The notes beneath the pieces were generated by a model that ran no database searches, was not told where the DNA came from, and saw nothing but the letters and a program-made list of their open reading frames with translations. A DNA stretch of 64,000 nucleotides from Candidatus Doudnabacteria bacterium (GTDB lineage Bacteria > Patescibacteriota > Doudnabacteria > UBA920 > 2-01-FULL-46-14): the NCBI GenBank assembly GCA_041497195.1, contig JBGQGB010000001.1, positions 143,672 to 207,671 on the forward strand. The letters run 5' to 3'. A program made the translations under genes and the position numbers. Shown one piece after another: positions 2,279-16,281 of the stretch (the stretch's first letter is position 1; every line of letters begins with the position of its first letter).

Positions 2279-2365
2279 TGGTGCCCGAGGAGAGACTCGA
2301 ACTCTCATGGTCTTGCGACCGCAGGATTTTGAGTCCTGTGCGTCTGCCAGTTCCGCCACTCGGGC
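2279..2365 (-). tRNA. tRNA-Leu (anticodon CAA), 87 nt, type II with long variable arm
   Basis: The reverse complement reads GCCCGAGTGGCGGAACTGGCAGACGCACAGGACTCAAAATCCTGCGGTCGCAAGACCATGAGAGTTCGAGTCTCTCCTCGGGCACCA. It has a 7-bp acceptor stem, an anticodon stem-loop CAGGA-CTCAAAA-TCCTG (anticodon CAA), a long variable arm, a T-loop GTTCGAGTC and an encoded CCA. Confidence 0.9.
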
Positions 2366-11648: not shown

Positions 11649-14600
11649 CTACGTACCAACCACAAAATTAATAATCTTGCCTGGGACATAGATTACCTTG
11701 CGTACCGTCTTGCCGTCAAGGTATTTGGCCACATTCTCTTCTTTCAAAGCTTGCAGCTTTGCAGCATCTTCCCCCGCATTCACTGGAAGCTCTATCGTAG
11801 CGCGATGCTTGCCGTTGACCTGGACTGCAACAGATACCTTTTCTTCTTTGATGAGCTCCGGGTCATACTTTGGCCATTGTTCGAGTTGAATGGATTTTTT
11901 ATGGCCAAGTTCAGCCCAAAGCTCTTCAGTCAGGTGAGGTGCAAAAGGAAAAAGCAGTTTTAAAAAAATTTTCCAATCATTCTTACTTATGTCGTGGTAC
12001 TGATAATATTCCATAAAAGCAGCAACAGCAGTATTAAACTTAAACGCCTGAATATCCATTGTAATCTTCTTTATGAGCTTATGAATTTTAGGAGAATCGG
12101 GATGGCTGTTCTCCTGTGTATAAAAATTAGATACTCGACTCAAAAATCTGAATACACCTTTTATCCCATCAATATTCCACGGCTTTGCGTCCTCCAGAGG
12201 CCCCATAAACATTTCATACATCCGCATTGAGTCCGCGCCAAATTCCTCAACAATATCGTCAGGATTGATGACATTACCGCGCGATTTGCTCATCTTCTGC
12301 CCGTCAGGACCTAGAACCAGCCCTTGATTTCGCAGTTTCAAAAATGGCTCGTCAAAGTTGAGATATCCCAAATCGCGCAAAACTTTGCAGAAAAACCGGG
12401 CATACATCAGATGCAGAACCGCGTGCTCTGCCCCGCCAACATACACATCCACCGGACACCATTTGGCGATTTCTTTGGCTGACGCAAACTCTTTTGCGTT
12501 GTTCGGATCAGTGTAGCGCAGCCAATACCAGGACGAATCAACAAAAGTGTCCATGGTATCAGTCTCCCGACGAGCTGCCTTGCCGCAATTTGGACACTTC
12601 ACCTTATTGAAAGATTTTGATCGTGCTAGTGGTGACTCTCCAGTCGGCTGAAAATCCACGTCTGTTGGAAGTGTGACAGGGAGGTCTTTTTCCGGCACTG
12701 CCTGCATGCCGCAATCGTGGCAATAAATGATGGGGATGGGAGCTCCCCAATACCGCTGCCGGCTGATCAACCAATCGCGAAGTTTGAATTGAACGGCTCT
12801 ACTACCGATTTCATTTTTTTCTAACCATTCAATAACTTTATTCTTCGCCTCACGGACTGTTAGGCCATTCAAAAAATCAGAATTTATTACCTTAGCCTCC
12901 CAGTCATCATGAACAAATGGGGTATGCTCTATATATTTAAAACCCCCGGCCTTTATCTCTTTAAAGACTTTTTTCTTTGCTTCCTCGGTATTAAATTCAA
13001 ATGCATGGAACCACCTATTAAAATAGCGTGTGGCACTATACCGCGGGTAATCCTCTATGCTAACCTTTTCCTTAGTAATTATTTCTTGCAATTTGATCAT
13101 CTTCGCCTGCTGCTCTGTGCTCCCAATAAGCTCAATACTAATTCCATCATTTACTTTTCTAATATTTATTCCTTGCTGGGTAGCAAACTCCCAATCTCTA
13201 AAATCATGTGCAGGCACGGCCATGATGGCGCCAGTGCCATAATTCATCAAAACATAATCAGCTATCCAGACTGGGATTTTTTCTTTGGTTGCTGGATTGA
13301 TCGCCCACACCCCTTTGAGCTCGACTCCGATTTTGTCTTTTTCCAGAGCTGTTCTTTGGAGTTCTGTTTTACTCTTTGCCTGCTCGATATATTTTTCGAC
13401 CTCTTGAAAATTGGAAATTGAAAATTGCAAATTCTTCACCTGCGGGTTCTCTGGAGCCAAAACCATATAGGTTGCTCCAAATATTGTATCGGGTCGAGTG
13501 GTAAAAACTTTGATGGAATTTTTGACCGCATTCAAAACTTCCAGCTCCTCTTTCCCCTTCACATGAGGCTTCGAGGCTCTGAATTTTACCAAACTGCCTC
13601 CTAGTTTTTCTTTCAAGGCCAAAGAAGCTGATTCTGGCACGATCTGATCGCTTTCATCCTGCAAAATGACGATTTGCTTCGCGTTCTTCTTTATGGCTTC
13701 AAAATCAAAATTCCAGTTCAGCTCCTTTTCAAACGACCGGGCCTTGTCCAAAAATTTTGGGGTTAGAAAACTCCCAACCAAGACTAGCTTGGAAATAGGC
13801 TGTTTCAATTTTTCCAGCATTTTGAGAGCCATCACGCCACCCAGACTGTGCCCGATCAAAACCGAACCTTCATCCAGGCGGGATTTCTGCAAAAGATCGG
13901 CGATTATTTCATTTTCCGGATATTTTTCCGTTCTTTTGTATACTATTGTTTGCGCTCTGGCTCCAGTGGATTGTAAACTTTTGGTTAACCAGGGATAAAA
14001 ATTATCTTGTTCGCTACTAGTCCAGCCCGGCAGGACAATATAGTTGGATTTTATGGCAAGCGGAAACTCAATCTCCGCTCCTTCGCTTCTTCCGATCCAA
14101 TTCCGTTGCATGGTCTTAATCGGCTCCGGCCAGTCTATCTTCTCTAAGCCGTCCAGCAACTCATCCGCATAGTCAGTAATTTTATAAAACCACTGCGATA
14201 GAAGCTTCTGCACAACCTGCGTGCCGCAACGCTCGCAGCGACCAGCGATGACTTGCTCATTCGCCAAAACTGTCTGGTCTTTGGGGCACCAGTTCACATA
14301 AGCTTCTTTGCGATACGCCAGACCCTTCTCGTAAAATTTCAGGAACAGCCACTGCGTCCATTTATAATATTCCGGATCCGAAGTATTTACTTCCCGGTCC
14401 CAGTCGTAGGACAGCCCCAGGGACTGAATCTGCTGTCTGAATCTTTTGATATTGGCCGCGGTTGATTTGGCCGGGTGAATTTTTTCTTTGATCGCATAAT
14501 TCTCGGCCGGCAACCCAAAAGCATCCCAACCCATCGGGTGCAGGACGTCATAGCCGTTCATGCGCAGATACCGTGAATAGATGTCAGTCGCGGTATAACC

Positions 14601-14762
14601 TTCGGGATGGCCGACGTGCAGCCCCGCGCCCGAGGGATAAGGAAACATATCCAGGATATATTTCTTTTTCTTCCCCGGATTTTTCGGCGTGGCGTAGAGC
14701 TTCTGCTCTGCCCATTTCTTCTGCCACTTTTTTTCAATTTTGCTGTGATTGTACTTGGTCAT
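11649..14762 (-). CDS. leuS: leucyl-tRNA synthetase with an extra inserted serine-hydrolase-like domain
   Basis: 1037 aa. It carries HMGH-like (PYPSGAGLHVGHPEGY) and KMSKS (QKMSKSRGNV) motifs, a CERCGTQV zinc region and TTRPDTIFGATY at the start of the editing domain. A roughly 170-aa insertion lies between the Zn-1 region and TTRPDT (see the separate feature). Confidence 0.95.
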   Translation of the reverse strand: MTKYNHSKIEKKWQKKWAEQKLYATPKNPGKKKKYILDMFPYPSGAGLHVGHPEGYTATDIYSRYLRMNGYDVLHPMGWDAFGLPAENYAIKEKIHPAKSTAANIKRFRQQIQSLGLSYDWDREVNTSDPEYYKWTQWLFLKFYEKGLAYRKEAYVNWCPKDQTVLANEQVIAGRCERCGTQVVQKLLSQWFYKITDYADELLDGLEKIDWPEPIKTMQRNWIGRSEGAEIEFPLAIKSNYIVLPGWTSSEQDNFYPWLTKSLQSTGARAQTIVYKRTEKYPENEIIADLLQKSRLDEGSVLIGHSLGGVMALKMLEKLKQPISKLVLVGSFLTPKFLDKARSFEKELNWNFDFEAIKKNAKQIVILQDESDQIVPESASLALKEKLGGSLVKFRASKPHVKGKEELEVLNAVKNSIKVFTTRPDTIFGATYMVLAPENPQVKNLQFSISNFQEVEKYIEQAKSKTELQRTALEKDKIGVELKGVWAINPATKEKIPVWIADYVLMNYGTGAIMAVPAHDFRDWEFATQQGINIRKVNDGISIELIGSTEQQAKMIKLQEIITKEKVSIEDYPRYSATRYFNRWFHAFEFNTEEAKKKVFKEIKAGGFKYIEHTPFVHDDWEAKVINSDFLNGLTVREAKNKVIEWLEKNEIGSRAVQFKLRDWLISRQRYWGAPIPIIYCHDCGMQAVPEKDLPVTLPTDVDFQPTGESPLARSKSFNKVKCPNCGKAARRETDTMDTFVDSSWYWLRYTDPNNAKEFASAKEIAKWCPVDVYVGGAEHAVLHLMYARFFCKVLRDLGYLNFDEPFLKLRNQGLVLGPDGQKMSKSRGNVINPDDIVEEFGADSMRMYEMFMGPLEDAKPWNIDGIKGVFRFLSRVSNFYTQENSHPDSPKIHKLIKKITMDIQAFKFNTAVAAFMEYYQYHDISKNDWKIFLKLLFPFAPHLTEELWAELGHKKSIQLEQWPKYDPELIKEEKVSVAVQVNGKHRATIELPVNAGEDAAKLQALKEENVAKYLDGKTVRKVIYVPGKIINFVVGT
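13535..14045 (-). other. RBBP9/YdeN-like (PF06821-type) alpha/beta serine-hydrolase domain inserted in-frame within leuS
   Basis: LeuS residues about 240-410 read YIVLPGWTSSEQDNFYPWLTKSLQ...VLIGHSLGGVMALKML...VILQDESDQIVP...RASKPH. They contain a GxSxG nucleophile elbow (GHSLGG) and candidate Asp and His triad residues. In E. coli LeuS only about 20 residues separate the equivalent flanks (NWIGRSEG ... TTRPDT). Confidence 0.6.
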
Positions 14763-15526
14763 CGCTTTTTCAAGCTAAGTTCTTTCATAATTTTCGAATG
14801 CAAAACCGGATTGGCGGCGAAGATCGACTCCGAATTCCATTTGTAAGATTTTCCAAATATATCGGTGACTTTAGCGCCTGCTTCTCCCGCAATAAGTGCG
14901 CCCGGTGCGTAATCCCAGATTTCACCAATAGTGTTAATATCGAAATCAATCCGGCCAGCCGCCACCCAGGCCAGGGTCAAACCGCCGGAAGCGAGCGAAT
15001 TATCCCAAATGTCGAAATCTAAAATCAGTCTTTGGAGCTTTTGAGACAGCGTCGGGGATGGCCGATCACGGCCCCAGACAATGGCTGCAAGCGAGGACTC
15101 TATCTTATCTACTGAATTCACCCTGATTCGCTGATTGTTCAAAAAAGCACCTCGGCCTTTTGTTGCAAAGAAATATTCGTCGTGGATCGGGTCATAAACC
15201 GCGCCGACTTCAATCCTCCCGTGCTTCACGAAAGCAAGCATGGTACAAAAGACGGGAATTCCCCTTGCAAAATTTCTCGTCCCGTCCAAAGGATCAACTA
15301 TCCAGAATTGATTTTTATCTCCCTTGAATCCCGTTTCTTCTCCCAGTATTCCGTGGCCAGGAAAACGCTTGTGGAGCTTATCCGCCACAAATTTTTCAGC
15401 AGCCAGATCATACTGCGTGGTAATATCCCAAAATCCATTTTTTTCCTTAATTCGGAGTTTCTTGCCGAACCCCTCCCGCAAAATCGCTCCGGCGCCTTTG
15501 GCTAAATTTTTGATGAAAGTTTCCAT
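14759..15526 (-). CDS. inositol monophosphatase family protein (paralog 1)
   Basis: It carries IMPase motifs WIVDPLDGTRNFARGIPVF and a C-terminal WDYAPG. The start ATG overlaps the stop of paralog 2 (TAATG), and the stop overlaps the leuS ATG (ATGA). Confidence 0.85.
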   Translation of the reverse strand: METFIKNLAKGAGAILREGFGKKLRIKEKNGFWDITTQYDLAAEKFVADKLHKRFPGHGILGEETGFKGDKNQFWIVDPLDGTRNFARGIPVFCTMLAFVKHGRIEVGAVYDPIHDEYFFATKGRGAFLNNQRIRVNSVDKIESSLAAIVWGRDRPSPTLSQKLQRLILDFDIWDNSLASGGLTLAWVAAGRIDFDINTIGEIWDYAPGALIAGEAGAKVTDIFGKSYKWNSESIFAANPVLHSKIMKELSLKKR

Positions 15527-16281
15527 TATTTTAGCTCCCGCATTATTTTACGATGCAAAAGCGGACTTGCCGCTACGATACTTCGTGAACTCCAATCATA
15601 TTTCTCGCCATTCAACTGAGAAATTTGGCCACCTGCCGCTTTGACCATCAAACTACCTGCCACATAATCCCACGGGCTGGCGCCGCTAAAAATTGCTAAA
15701 TCGAAACGTCCGCTCGCCACGTAAGCAAGAGACAATGCAGCCGTGGAAATATAAGCATTCCACAATTTCGTCCGCAAAACAAAAGCCTGGAGCCGAGCCT
15801 GCAGTCTGCTTGTCATCACATCGGGACTTTGCTCTACAGAACCTAGCGCCGATTGCAAATGCCTTTGCTTGCTCACAAAAATCTTTTTTCCGTTCAAAAA
15901 AGCGCCGCCGTTTTTCTTGGCAAAAAAAAGCTCTTGTGCCATTGGATTATAGATTGCGGCGTATATCGGGATATTTTCTTCCAAAAAACAAATCGCAACG
16001 CAAAATATCGGTATTCCGCGGGAAAAATTGAGCGTTCCATCGAGAGGATCAATAACCCACATATACCTCCCTACTGTGCGATGCGTTTTTTCTTCTGAAT
16101 AGATGGAATGACCTGGAAATTTTTTGCGAATTGTGTCAATCAAAAACTTTTCTGACGCCAAATCATATTTAGTAACGACATCACGCGCACCTTTTTTTTG
16201 ACCGATATTAATTTTCTTGCCAAGCCCGCCCCGCAAAATGGCTCCAGCGCCTTTGGCTAAATTTTTGATGAAAGTTTCCAT
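15526..16281 (-). CDS. inositol monophosphatase family protein (paralog 2, tandem duplicate)
   Basis: It carries WVIDPLDGTLNFSRGIPIF. The first 17 aa (METFIKNLAKGAGAILR) and about 40 nt of the 5' coding sequence are identical to paralog 1; the rest is diverged. Confidence 0.85.
   Translation of the reverse strand: METFIKNLAKGAGAILRGGLGKKINIGQKKGARDVVTKYDLASEKFLIDTIRKKFPGHSIYSEEKTHRTVGRYMWVIDPLDGTLNFSRGIPIFCVAICFLEENIPIYAAIYNPMAQELFFAKKNGGAFLNGKKIFVSKQRHLQSALGSVEQSPDVMTSRLQARLQAFVLRTKLWNAYISTAALSLAYVASGRFDLAIFSGASPWDYVAGSLMVKAAGGQISQLNGEKYDWSSRSIVAASPLLHRKIMRELK

What the first reader, a model, noticed from the sequence alone, without database searches (positions are those of the whole stretch)
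13535..14045. Leucyl-tRNA synthetase carrying an inserted RBBP9/YdeN-type serine-hydrolase domain
leuS contains an in-frame roughly 170-aa segment between the Zn-1 region (CERCGTQV) and the conserved TTRPDT start of the CP1 editing domain. It has a complete alpha/beta-hydrolase hallmark set. The N-terminal stretch FYPWLTKSLQ resembles the start of PF06821 Ser_hydrolase proteins. A GHSLGG nucleophile elbow is present. An acidic residue lies in QDESDQIVP, and a C-terminal His is in SKPH. In E. coli LeuS only about 20 residues separate the equivalent flanks. I know of no described aminoacyl-tRNA synthetase with an esterase-type domain fused at this position. It could add a second hydrolytic activity to the enzyme, such as aminoacyl-ester or thioester proofreading, deacylation of mischarged tRNA or aminoacyl-adenylate, or an unrelated moonlighting esterase. 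This is the most unusual protein architecture in the window.
Basis: partly seen in the sequence, partly recalled or inferred. Interest (0 to 1): 0.8.

Follow-up and report, generated by a model that had tools for sequence, protein, structure and literature searches.

The report
LeuRS carrying a nested serine hydrolase
This candidate-phyla-radiation bacterium's leucyl-tRNA synthetase really does have a complete RBBP9/YdeN-type serine hydrolase inserted in its editing domain, and related genomes keep this hydrolase inside or beside the LeuRS gene, so it is probably an undescribed partner enzyme of LeuRS.

Summary
leuS (window 11649-14762, minus strand, 1037 aa) is a complete bacterial LeuRS. It has a 183-aa module (aa 234-416, window 13515-14063) in the first beta-hairpin of the CP1 editing domain.

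- **Identity of the module.** It passes the Pfam PF06821 threshold and models at pLDDT 94. Its best structural matches are RBBP9 and YdeN (TM about 0.8). Ser306, Asp372 and His400 align with the RBBP9 triad.
- **Not an artefact.** The identical protein occurs in contigs from three sources.
- **Not unique.** 67 of the 120 nearest LeuRS clusters, all from Patescibacteria where labelled, carry this hydrolase in one of four different LeuRS loops. The triad is almost invariant.
- **Gene neighbourhood.** All 7 informative free-standing relatives lie within two genes of a LeuRS gene. One sits with an archaeal-type LeuRS, a YbaK-like protein and Ham1.
- **Cassette history.** The window's cassette has a different history from its host gene, with switch points at the module borders.
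- **Complication.** The same module is also inserted in ValRS, AlaRS, TsaD, Der and SecA.

I found no paper describing this. The most likely role is an accessory hydrolase acting on aminoacyl-type by-products of LeuRS; this is inferred, not shown. I rate it a new variant of a known kind, interest about 0.7.

The parts
11649..14762 (-). leuS coding sequence, 1037 aa plus stop: a complete bacterial-type LeuRS that hosts the module.
   Evidence: ORF. TIGR00396 scores 1028.8 bits against a 548.4 cutoff. The full-length AF2 model has pLDDT 86.4 and pTM 0.79. It matches T. thermophilus, E. coli and N. gonorrhoeae LeuRS structures with TM 0.72-0.83 normalised to the target.
14607..14618 (-). HIGH motif (HVGH, aa 49-52) of the synthetic site.
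14064..14099 (-). N-terminal flank WIGRSEGAEIEF (aa 222-233). This is the first strand of the CP1 hairpin that is split by the insertion.
   Evidence: Conserved in the site-1 insert-bearing relatives aligned (W222, G224, S226, G228 and F233 in 65/65). Predicted strand 225-235.
13515..14063 (-). Inserted RBBP9/YdeN-type alpha/beta serine hydrolase module (aa 234-416).
   Evidence: PF06821 scores 32.5 bits against 22, and PF00561 32.7 against 25.8. AF2 pLDDT is 94.4 alone and 79-96 per 10-residue block in context. Foldseek top hits are RBBP9 and YdeN. The similarity switch relative to host-like and insert-like relatives falls at aa ~233 and ~416.
13845..13847 (-). Codon of Ser306, the nucleophile in the GHSLGG elbow.
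   Evidence: Aligns with RBBP9 Ser75. Ser in 69 of 69 LeuRS-embedded modules.
13647..13649 (-). Codon of Asp372, the catalytic acid.
   Evidence: Aligns with RBBP9 Asp138. Asp in 65 and Glu in 3 of 69 modules.
13563..13565 (-). Codon of His400, the catalytic base.
   Evidence: Aligns with RBBP9 His165. His in 69 of 69 modules.
13485..13514 (-). C-terminal flank IKVFTTRPDT (aa 417-426). It comprises the second hairpin strand and the intact threonine-rich editing motif of CP1.
   Evidence: F, T, T, R, D and T are invariant in 65/65 relatives. Predicted strand 416-421.
13194..13238 (-). CP1 editing motif GTGAIMAVPAHDFRD (aa 509-523), intact.
   Evidence: H519, D520, R522 and D523 are invariant in the 60-sequence alignment A3.
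12897..13151 (-). A second, lineage-specific extra segment in the CP1 'site 2' loop (aa 538-622). It is not a recognisable domain.
   Evidence: The AVPAHD-to-LRDW distance is 144 here against 41-70 in most relatives lacking a NUDIX insert. There is no Pfam hit. There is no similarity to the NUDIX inserts of relatives. pLDDT is 39-58.
12282..12296 (-). KMSKS motif (aa 823-827).

Best explanation
**What it is (shown).** This is a complete, apparently functional bacterial LeuRS. The first beta-hairpin of its CP1 editing domain has been opened to hold an autonomously folding RBBP9/YdeN-family serine hydrolase of about 183 aa. The module's two ends meet, and the two LeuRS strands (aa 225-235 and 416-421) still pair in the model. 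The synthetase fold and its own editing motifs are therefore untouched.

**Catalytic competence (shown by sequence and fold).** The module keeps a Ser306-His400-Asp372 triad. It should therefore attack an acyl carbonyl, form an acyl-enzyme and release the acyl group with water.

**A conserved partnership (shown).** In Patescibacteria the hydrolase sits in one of four LeuRS loops. When it is free-standing it is encoded next to leuS, on either side. The window's cassette was exchanged independently of its host gene.

**What it does (inferred).** It most likely acts as an accessory hydrolase working on aminoacyl-type compounds that LeuRS makes or leaks. Candidates are released non-cognate aminoacyl-adenylates, aminoacyl esters including mischarged tRNA-Leu, and aminoacyl adducts on proteins. 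This would add a second clean-up activity beside the CP1 editing site. Its C-terminal helix is tethered one beta-strand away from the editing threonines Thr421 and Thr422.

**Confidence by layer.** That it is a real, intact hydrolase domain: about 0.95. That it is functionally linked to LeuRS: about 0.7. That it acts specifically in aminoacyl quality control: about 0.35-0.4.
For: **Identity and integrity.**
- The Pfam gathering score is passed.
- pLDDT is 94 for the module alone and about 90 in context.
- RBBP9 and YdeN are the top fold matches.
- The triad aligns with RBBP9 and is near-invariant in 69 LeuRS-embedded copies.
- The LeuRS motifs are intact.

**Real sequence.**
- The identical protein is on six contigs from three sources.
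- GC and GC3 of the insert equal those of the host.

**Linkage to LeuRS.**
- The hydrolase is present in 67 of the 120 nearest LeuRS clusters. It occupies four different loops: the CP1 hairpin, the FKITG..YPERLL loop, CP1 site 2 and the ZN2 knuckle.
- P0054 and P0040 are close host relatives whose hydrolases are 67% identical but sit in different loops.
- 47 of the 150 best 50%-identity cluster representatives are LeuRS or LeuRS fragments.
- 13 of 15 loci recovered from a scan of GTDB species-representative genomes are inside LeuRS.
- 7 of 7 informative free-standing relatives lie within two genes of a LeuRS gene, and 5 are immediately adjacent.
- One of them lies in a gene cluster of hydrolase, hydrolase, YbaK-like tRNA_edit, Ham1 and archaeal-type LeuRS.
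- As a control, 0 of 79 other metagenomic leuS loci hold the hydrolase within 4 kb.

**Substrate class.**
- The family member RBBP9 forms acyl-enzymes with single hydrophobic amino acids, including Leu/Ile. It requires a free alpha-amine, and the authors allow amide, ester or thioester substrates (PMC8866121).
- The domains co-inserted in CP1 in relatives, NUDIX and Ham1, are also small-molecule clean-up hydrolases.
Against: - No activity has been measured.
- The CP1 editing site of the host is intact, so there is no obvious gap to fill.
- To my knowledge, no alpha/beta-hydrolase is known to deacylate tRNA or hydrolyse aminoacyl-adenylates.
- The same module is nested in or fused to proteins unrelated to aminoacylation, namely Der, SecA, Adk, a cytidylate-kinase-like protein and a methyltransferase. 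It is also fused to peptidases. This fits a generic passenger or a peptidase role.
- RBBP9's alpha-amine anchor Glu108 is not conserved at the aligned position. The embedded copies instead have a conserved Asp339 and Arg342 in that loop.
- The tools returned no model coordinates, so I could not tell whether the hydrolase pocket faces the editing site, the synthetic site or the tRNA path.
- The free-standing neighbours could be fission products, in which case their adjacency would be partly historical.
Confidence: 0.45

Rival explanations
1. **Passenger module.** The hydrolase is a general housekeeping enzyme, for example an esterase or aminopeptidase used in scavenging. It tolerates being nested in surface loops and has been captured by several essential, constitutively expressed genes in streamlined genomes. 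LeuRS is only its commonest carrier and gains nothing mechanistically.
For: - The same module is nested in ValRS (P0170), AlaRS (P0188), TsaD (P0179), Der (P0251) and SecA (P0162). It is fused to Adk (P0249) and Ham1 (P0250).
- It is also fused to Peptidase_S51, S33/S9 hydrolases, a kinase and a methyltransferase.
- NUDIX, Ham1 and even an IS200-like Y1 transposase domain occupy the same CP1 loops in relatives, which marks those loops as permissive sites.
- The cassette is exchanged independently of its host.
- The host's own editing site is intact.
Against: - LeuRS is by far the dominant host, with 47 of the 150 top representatives against one each for the others. This count is biased, because the profile was built from LeuRS inserts.
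- The module has been placed in four different LeuRS loops.
- When detached it stays beside leuS, on either side, including beside a non-orthologous archaeal-type LeuRS together with a YbaK-like editing protein.
- That persistence through many rearrangements argues for selection on the linkage itself.
Confidence: 0.3
2. **Substrate supply.** The module is an RBBP9-like aminopeptidase or amino-acid esterase. It releases leucine or other hydrophobic residues from peptides beside the enzyme that consumes most of it, in organisms that cannot make amino acids.
For: - RBBP9 is an aminopeptidase that traps Leu/Ile, Phe, Tyr and Trp.
- Family members are fused to peptidases of families S51, S33 and S9.
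- Linkage to LeuRS, ValRS and AlaRS fits a link to amino-acid use.
Against: - Free amino acids diffuse quickly, so tethering gives little kinetic gain.
- This idea does not explain the NUDIX, Ham1 and YbaK-like company, or the Der, SecA and Adk hosts.
- RBBP9's Glu108 is not conserved at the aligned position.
Confidence: 0.12
3. **Non-catalytic CP1 extension.** The hydrolase fold serves only as a structural, docking or regulatory appendage.
For: - The window copy has Pro245 where most copies have the His of the HG motif. It also lacks four prolines or glutamines that are conserved in most other copies.
- One relative, L032, has lost both Asp residues of the acid loop.
Against: - Ser306 and His400 are conserved in 69 of 69 copies. 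Asp372 is Asp or Glu in 68 of 69.
- RBBP9 itself has Pro-Gly at the HG position and is active.
- The domain is retained as an intact free-standing ORF next to leuS.
Confidence: 0.05
4. **Selfish in-frame element.** The module is an intein-like or intron-like element that is removed from the mature LeuRS. Alternatively, the whole architecture is an assembly or gene-calling artefact.
For: - It inserts in essential genes, moves between sites and is exchanged between lineages.
- A transposase domain sits at the same site in P0096.
- One public assembly, L002, shows the gene in pieces.
Against: - The fold is an alpha/beta hydrolase, not a Hint fold.
- The junction residues are variable, with no Cys/Ser/Thr nucleophile and no His-Asn pair.
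- The reading frame is continuous in the 60 or more diverged copies aligned, which an intron would not require.
- The identical protein occurs in contigs from three sources.
- The composition equals that of the host.
- The L002 break is a single frameshift in an A7 run, in an assembly that also splits tatD.
Confidence: 0.03

Closest known systems
RBBP9 / YdeN serine hydrolases (Pfam PF06821; PDB 2QS9, 7OEX, 9FCR, 1UXO)
   Same: Both are minimal alpha/beta-hydrolase folds of about 180-190 aa. The window module superposes at TM 0.76-0.83 and rmsd 2.4-2.8 A. The Ser-Asp-His triad is in the same positions. The FxPWL and GHSxG motifs are shared. The window and RBBP9 both have Pro-Gly at the HG position.
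   Different: The known members are free-standing proteins, whereas this one is nested inside another enzyme. Identity is only 21-23%. RBBP9's alpha-amine anchor Glu108 is not conserved at the aligned position. The embedded copies instead share an FxD(K/R)xR motif in that loop. The substrate is unknown.
Bacterial LeuRS with a canonical CP1 editing domain (E. coli 4AQ7/4ARC, T. thermophilus 2BTE)
   Same: The HIGH and KMSKS motifs, the ZN1 and ZN2 knuckles, the CP1 Thr-rich and Asp motifs, and the anticodon-binding and C-terminal domains are all present. TM is 0.72-0.83 normalised to the target.
   Different: The solved LeuRS chains matched are at most 876 residues long, too short to hold an extra domain of this size. 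Here 183 aa are inserted in the hairpin that precedes the Thr-rich motif. A further disordered segment of about 85 aa sits at site 2.
Free-standing trans-editing and clean-up factors of aminoacylation (YbaK/ProXp, AlaXp, DTD; HINT for aminoacyl-adenylates)
   Same: The proposed role is the same: hydrolysis of wrongly made or leaked aminoacyl compounds alongside a synthetase. One relative of the hydrolase lies in the same gene cluster as a YbaK-like protein and LeuRS.
   Different: The fold and the catalytic chemistry are entirely different, since this is a Ser-His-Asp alpha/beta hydrolase. No deacylase or adenylate-hydrolase activity has been shown for this family.
Other synthetases with an embedded accessory enzyme domain (for example NCBIfam NF040702, 'isoleucine--tRNA ligase, N-acetyltransferase domain-containing')
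   Same: Both are class I synthetases of the Ile/Leu/Val group that carry an extra catalytic domain and are annotated simply as the ligase (one search lists the model).
   Different: The guest domain differs (GNAT against alpha/beta hydrolase), and so does the host. The window protein scores only 71 bits on that model, against a cutoff of 1999.
Inteins
   Same: Both are in-frame insertions in essential, conserved genes, with signs of lateral movement between hosts and sites.
   Different: There is no Hint fold, no conserved splice-junction residues and no homing endonuclease. The insertion sites are variable surface loops, not active-site motifs. The triad and fold point to an ordinary hydrolase that stays in the protein.

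Membership tests
Bacterial leucyl-tRNA synthetase (TIGR00396) | Whole-protein score above the curated cutoff | tested here: met
   1028.8 bits against 548.4.
Bacterial leucyl-tRNA synthetase (TIGR00396) | Class I signature motifs HIGH and KMSKS | tested here: met
   HVGH at aa 49-52 and KMSKS at aa 823-827.
Bacterial leucyl-tRNA synthetase (TIGR00396) | CP1 editing domain with the Thr-rich motif and the conserved Asp | tested here: met
   PF13603 scores 176.5 bits. TTRPDT is at 421-426 and AHDFRD at 518-523. These are invariant across relatives.
Bacterial leucyl-tRNA synthetase (TIGR00396) | Overall fold of solved LeuRS structures | tested here: met
   Foldseek matches 2BTE, 4AQ7, 7NU3 and others with E down to 3e-79 and TM 0.72-0.83 normalised to the target.
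Bacterial leucyl-tRNA synthetase (TIGR00396) | Leucylation of tRNA-Leu | not testable with these tools
   This needs an enzyme assay.
RBBP9/YdeN serine hydrolase (Pfam PF06821) | Profile score above the Pfam gathering threshold | tested here: met
   32.5 bits against 22, covering profile positions 2-150 of 172.
RBBP9/YdeN serine hydrolase (Pfam PF06821) | Minimal alpha/beta-hydrolase fold of about 190 aa superposable on RBBP9 and YdeN | tested here: met
   pLDDT 94.4. The top seven Foldseek hits are RBBP9 and YdeN chains, at TM 0.76-0.83. The next-best families score E about 1e-7.
RBBP9/YdeN serine hydrolase (Pfam PF06821) | Ser-Asp-His triad at the family's positions | tested here: met
   S306, D372 and H400 align with RBBP9 S75, D138 and H165.
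RBBP9/YdeN serine hydrolase (Pfam PF06821) | RBBP9-type recognition of a free alpha-amine (Glu108, Ser76, Tyr99) | tested here: inconclusive
   The aligned residues are Ala341, Leu307 and Phe332. A conserved Asp339 lies three residues upstream in the same loop. The alignment of this loop is uncertain.
RBBP9/YdeN serine hydrolase (Pfam PF06821) | Hydrolase activity | not testable with these tools
   This needs a probe-labelling or substrate assay.
Aminoacyl-tRNA trans-editing factors (YbaK/ProXp, AlaXp, DTD) | Homology to one of the known editing folds | tested here: not met
   No PF04073 or related hit in the window protein. The fold is an alpha/beta hydrolase. It may work like such a factor, but it is not a member.
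Aminoacyl-tRNA trans-editing factors (YbaK/ProXp, AlaXp, DTD) | Deacylation of mischarged tRNA | not testable with these tools
   This needs an assay.
Intein | Hint fold and conserved splice-junction residues (N-terminal Cys/Ser, C-terminal His-Asn followed by Cys/Ser/Thr) | tested here: not met
   The junctions are F233|P234 and S416|I417 and vary among homologues. The fold is an alpha/beta hydrolase.

The most novel reading that the evidence does not exclude
The RBBP9/YdeN-type hydrolase would be a dedicated LeuRS partner shared by ultra-small symbiotic prokaryotes. These are the Patescibacteria and, through the archaeal-type LeuRS gene cluster, possibly DPANN archaea. It would be the first alpha/beta-hydrolase-fold proofreading or damage-control factor of aminoacylation. 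It would hydrolyse leaked or non-cognate aminoacyl-adenylates, mischarged tRNA-Leu or aminoacyl adducts. It would be deliverable either as a domain nested in any of four LeuRS loops or as an operon partner, and it would be exchanged between lineages as a cassette.
Probability: 0.3. Interest if true: 0.85.

Novelty: new variant of a known kind. Interest (0 to 1): 0.7.

Why it matters
**For synthetase biology.** Aminoacyl-tRNA synthetases are among the best-studied enzymes. Their known fidelity devices are the CP1, INS and N2 editing domains and a few free-standing deacylases. A serine hydrolase of a completely different fold that stays with LeuRS through repeated fusion, relocation, fission and cassette exchange across a large part of bacterial diversity would be a new component of that system. 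At the least it would be a new, testable functional link.

**For the hydrolase family.** PF06821 is poorly understood. Human RBBP9 was assigned an aminopeptidase activity only in 2022. The LeuRS link offers a concrete physiological context.

**For protein evolution.** The case shows enzyme domains nesting in surface loops of essential proteins in streamlined genomes. The hydrolase does this in LeuRS, ValRS, AlaRS, TsaD, Der and SecA, and NUDIX and Ham1 do so in LeuRS. This is relevant to domain-insertion evolution and to protein engineering.

**For annotation.** These proteins are labelled only 'leucine--tRNA ligase'. When they are frameshifted, a fragment is labelled 'alpha/beta hydrolase'.

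Tried and rejected
- **Chimeric assembly: rejected.** The identical protein is on six contigs from JGI, NCBI and Logan. The composition of the insert matches the host. More than 60 diverged homologues share the architecture.
- **Ordinary CP1 length variation: rejected.** The segment has a significant family hit and fold match. Canonical relatives have 24 residues at this position.
- **Intein or intron: rejected.** The fold, the junction residues and the frame continuity all argue against it.
- **Hydrolase replaces a dead editing site: rejected for the window.** TTRPDT and AHD..RD are intact. A small clade with a degenerate 'YDSVPQT' motif does exist (L001, L031, L032). With only three members it proves nothing.
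- **The window's second extra segment (aa 538-622) is a decayed NUDIX: rejected.** A profile of 26 NUDIX inserts scores -0.5 bits against it.
- **Assigning the NUDIX inserts of relatives to an Ap4A or other subfamily: uninformative.** All NCBIfam hits fall far below their cutoffs.
- **A search with the insert alone missed the embedded homologues.** It found only 7 proteins, because the word index is insensitive at 35-40% identity. The full-length search recovered them.
- **The search for related loci with the 35-sequence alignment failed.** There was no sufficiently conserved stretch, so I repeated it with four close sequences.
- **The AFDB50 fold library was unavailable**.
- **A literature search on PF06821/YdeN returned only word-prefix noise**.
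- **Active-site geometry relative to the LeuRS sites could not be measured.** No model coordinates are exposed.


Full report
**1. What is in the window.**
- The finding lies in one ORF, 11649-14762 on the minus strand, of 1037 aa. NCBIfam identifies it as bacterial LeuRS: TIGR00396 scores 1028.8 bits against a cutoff of 548.4.
- HVGH, KMSKS, both zinc knuckles and the CP1 motifs TTRPDT and GTG..AHDFRD are all present.
- An extra 183 aa (aa 234-416, window 13515-14063) sit between the strand GAEIEF (aa 228-233) and the strand IKVF that leads into TTRPDT (aa 417-426).
- In canonical relatives the WIGRSxG-to-TTRPDT distance is 24 residues. Here it is 199.
- The insertion therefore lies inside the first hairpin of CP1, not between the Zn-1 region and CP1.

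**2. What the inserted segment is.**
- Pfam PF06821 (Ser_hydrolase) and PF00561 both pass their gathering scores (32.5/22 and 32.7/25.8).
- By sequence, the nearest solved proteins are B. subtilis YdeN (1UXO, E 8e-12) and human RBBP9 (E 4e-5).
- AlphaFold2 on the segment with 35 homologues gives pLDDT 94.4 and pTM 0.91.
- The seven best Foldseek hits in the PDB are RBBP9 and YdeN chains, at TM 0.76-0.83 and rmsd 2.4-2.8 A. The next families score about five orders of magnitude worse in E-value.
- Ser306, Asp372 and His400 align with RBBP9 Ser75, Asp138 and His165.
- In the full-length model (pLDDT 86.4, pTM 0.79) the module keeps pLDDT 79-96 per block. The two flanking LeuRS strands (225-235 and 416-421) are both predicted. 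The rest of the model superposes on solved bacterial LeuRS structures.

**3. It is not an artefact.**
- Exactly the same 1037-aa protein is encoded on six contigs. These include a 364-kb JGI contig, an NCBI MAG (GCA_041492065.1) and a Logan contig from SRR29604911.
- GC and GC3 of the insert (0.43 and 0.487) match the host gene (0.45 and 0.495).

**4. It is not unique.**
- A search with the whole protein returned LeuRS clusters that are all from Patescibacteria where labelled. The labels include Doudna-, Sung-, Komeili-, Campbell-, Vogel-, Kerfeld-, Woese- and Falkowbacteria.
- Of the best 120, 65 carry about 175-205 extra residues at this same site. 63 of those are this hydrolase. One (P0123) has a Ham1 domain there and one (P0096) has an IS200-like Y1 transposase domain.
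- Four more carry the hydrolase in other LeuRS loops:
  - P0054 in the FKITG..YPERLL loop about 45 residues upstream.
  - P0123 in CP1 site 2.
  - P0061 and P0070 right after the first CxxC of the ZN2 knuckle.
- Twenty-six carry a NUDIX-sized insert (NUDIX by Pfam in those checked) in CP1 site 2.
- Across 69 LeuRS-embedded hydrolases the nucleophile Ser and the His are invariant. The acid is Asp in 65 and Glu in 3.
- The CP1 editing motifs of the hosts are invariant as well.

**5. The module moves.**
- P0054 and P0040 are close host relatives whose hydrolases are 67% identical, against a median of 43%. They sit in different loops, and the vacated loop looks canonical.
- For the window itself, host and insert histories disagree.
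  - LeuRS proteins 83-86% (N-terminal part) and 65-80% (C-terminal part) identical to the window's have inserts only 33-38% identical.
  - The three most similar embedded inserts (58%, 56% and 51%) sit in distant hosts (61% and 46-55%).
  - Host and insert identity to the window are negatively correlated (r = -0.43).
- The switch in similarity falls at about aa 233 and 416, the module borders. I read this as a cassette exchange through the nearly invariant flanks. Unequal evolutionary rates cannot be fully excluded without likelihood-based tests.

**6. Linkage to LeuRS when the hydrolase is free-standing.**
- The closest free-standing relative of the window's insert (P0001, 55% identical) lies 3 nt downstream of a canonical-length leuS. 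The block is otherwise syntenic: metG, tatD, further genes, leuS, hydrolase, sua5, an MFS transporter gene, then an SHMT gene.
- An exhaustive profile search returned 8094 family members, 430 of them with E below 1e-30. Among the top 150 representatives:
  - 47 are LeuRS or LeuRS fragments.
  - 1 is a ValRS.
  - 81 are 260 aa or shorter.
  - 20 have other architectures.
- I looked up nine free-standing ones.
  - Five are immediately adjacent to leuS: P0001 downstream, and P0132, P0144, P0150 and P0163 upstream.
  - P0159 is two genes from leuS.
  - P0148 lies in a cluster of hydrolase, hydrolase, YbaK-like tRNA_edit and Ham1 followed by an archaeal-type LeuRS (TIGR00395, 750.7 bits).
  - Two contigs were too short to judge.
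- In a scan of GTDB species-representative genomes, 13 of 15 matching loci were inside LeuRS.
- As a control, none of 79 other metagenomic leuS loci had the hydrolase within 4 kb.

**7. The complication.**
- The same module, still among the top 150 hits, is nested in ValRS, AlaRS, TsaD, Der and SecA. It is fused to adenylate kinase and Ham1.
- Lower-ranked members are fused to NUDIX, Peptidase_S51, S33/S9 hydrolases, a cytidylate-kinase-like protein and a methyltransferase.
- The domain is therefore a generally insertion-competent module. LeuRS is its main host, not its only one.

**8. How it most likely works.**
- Shown: there is an intact, independently folding Ser-His-Asp hydrolase. It is anchored by short ordered connections at the tip of a CP1 hairpin. 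Its C-terminal strand runs straight into the editing threonines. It is held in or beside LeuRS genes through many rearrangements.
- From the literature: the family member RBBP9 forms acyl-enzymes with single hydrophobic amino acids, including Leu/Ile. It requires a free alpha-amine and may cleave amide, ester or thioester bonds (PMC8866121).
- Inferred: the module hydrolyses aminoacyl-type compounds connected with LeuRS. Candidates are released aminoacyl-adenylates, aminoacyl esters including mischarged tRNA, and aminoacyl adducts.
  - The company it keeps in relatives (YbaK-like protein, NUDIX, Ham1) fits a clean-up role better than a supply role.
  - The peptidase fusions keep the aminopeptidase idea alive.
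- Weak points:
  - The host's CP1 site is intact.
  - RBBP9's amine anchor Glu108 is not conserved at the aligned position.
  - Several hosts are unrelated to aminoacylation.
  - The orientation of the pocket could not be measured.

**9. Comparison with what is known.**
- The insert is a member of PF06821 on every feature I could test. The one exception is the RBBP9-specific amine-binding residues, which are inconclusive.
- The host is a member of bacterial LeuRS.
- The combination is not a member of any known editing-factor family.
- Five literature searches aimed at such an enzyme found no description of a LeuRS with this domain. A sixth search, on PF06821/YdeN, returned only word-prefix noise. 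The nearest item was a general survey that lists CP1 as an insertion-only domain (PMC13114784).
- The searchable library covers open-access papers and bioRxiv only, so a description elsewhere cannot be excluded.
- The sequences themselves are public. Database names found for them are only 'leucine--tRNA ligase' or 'hypothetical protein', although precomputed Pfam hits exist.

**10. Verdict.**
- This is a new variant of a known kind: a synthetase with an accessory catalytic domain.
- It is interesting chiefly because comparative genomics points to a conserved and so far undescribed LeuRS-hydrolase partnership, and simple enzyme assays could test that.

Noticed in passing
window 12897-13151 (-), LeuS aa 538-622: A second lineage-specific extra segment sits in the CP1 'site 2' loop. 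The AVPAHD-to-LRDW distance is 144 here against 41-70 in most relatives lacking a NUDIX insert. The segment is Lys/Glu-rich with predicted helices and pLDDT 39-58. It has no Pfam hit and no similarity to the NUDIX domains that fill this loop in 26 of 120 relatives.
   Followed up: partly
window 14759-15526 (-) and 15526-16281 (-): Two tandem inositol-monophosphatase-like genes lie directly upstream of leuS. They are 45% identical over 250 aa and share the same first 17 residues (METFIKNLAKGAGAILR). The first overlaps the leuS start by 4 nt.
   Followed up: partly
window 2279-2365 (-): The only tRNA gene in the window is tRNA-Leu(CAA). It is on the same strand as leuS, about 9.3 kb downstream.
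   Followed up: no
P0096 (Falkowbacteria LeuRS, 974 aa), aa 273-387: An IS200-like Y1 transposase domain (PF01797, 59 bits) is inserted in frame in the same CP1 hairpin that holds the hydrolase in the window.
   Followed up: no
L001 5578-7998, L031 2831-4558, L032 3398-6436: A small LeuRS clade has lost the threonine-rich editing motif (YDSVPQT instead of TTRPDT). Each member keeps the hydrolase differently: as the downstream gene, as the upstream gene, or nested in the ZN2 knuckle. The nested L032 copy lacks both Asp residues of the acid loop.
   Followed up: partly
L002 3399-6384 (GCA_023487095.1, JAMDEL010000063.1): A homologous leuS with the same insert is split by one frameshift in an A7 run inside the hydrolase. 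The public annotation calls the middle fragment 'alpha/beta hydrolase'. tatD on the same contig is also split, which suggests sequencing errors.
   Followed up: yes
P0170, P0188, P0179, P0251, P0162, P0249: The same hydrolase module is nested in ValRS, AlaRS, TsaD, Der/EngA and SecA and is fused to adenylate kinase. Enzyme domains nesting inside essential proteins therefore appears to be a wider habit of these small genomes.
   Followed up: partly
L025 4001-8549 (GCA_020049755.1, JAHZTO010004402.1): This gene cluster holds two tandem Ser_hydrolase genes, a YbaK-like tRNA_edit gene, a Ham1-like gene and an archaeal-type LeuRS. It links the hydrolase to a non-orthologous LeuRS. The organism was not identified.
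   Followed up: partly
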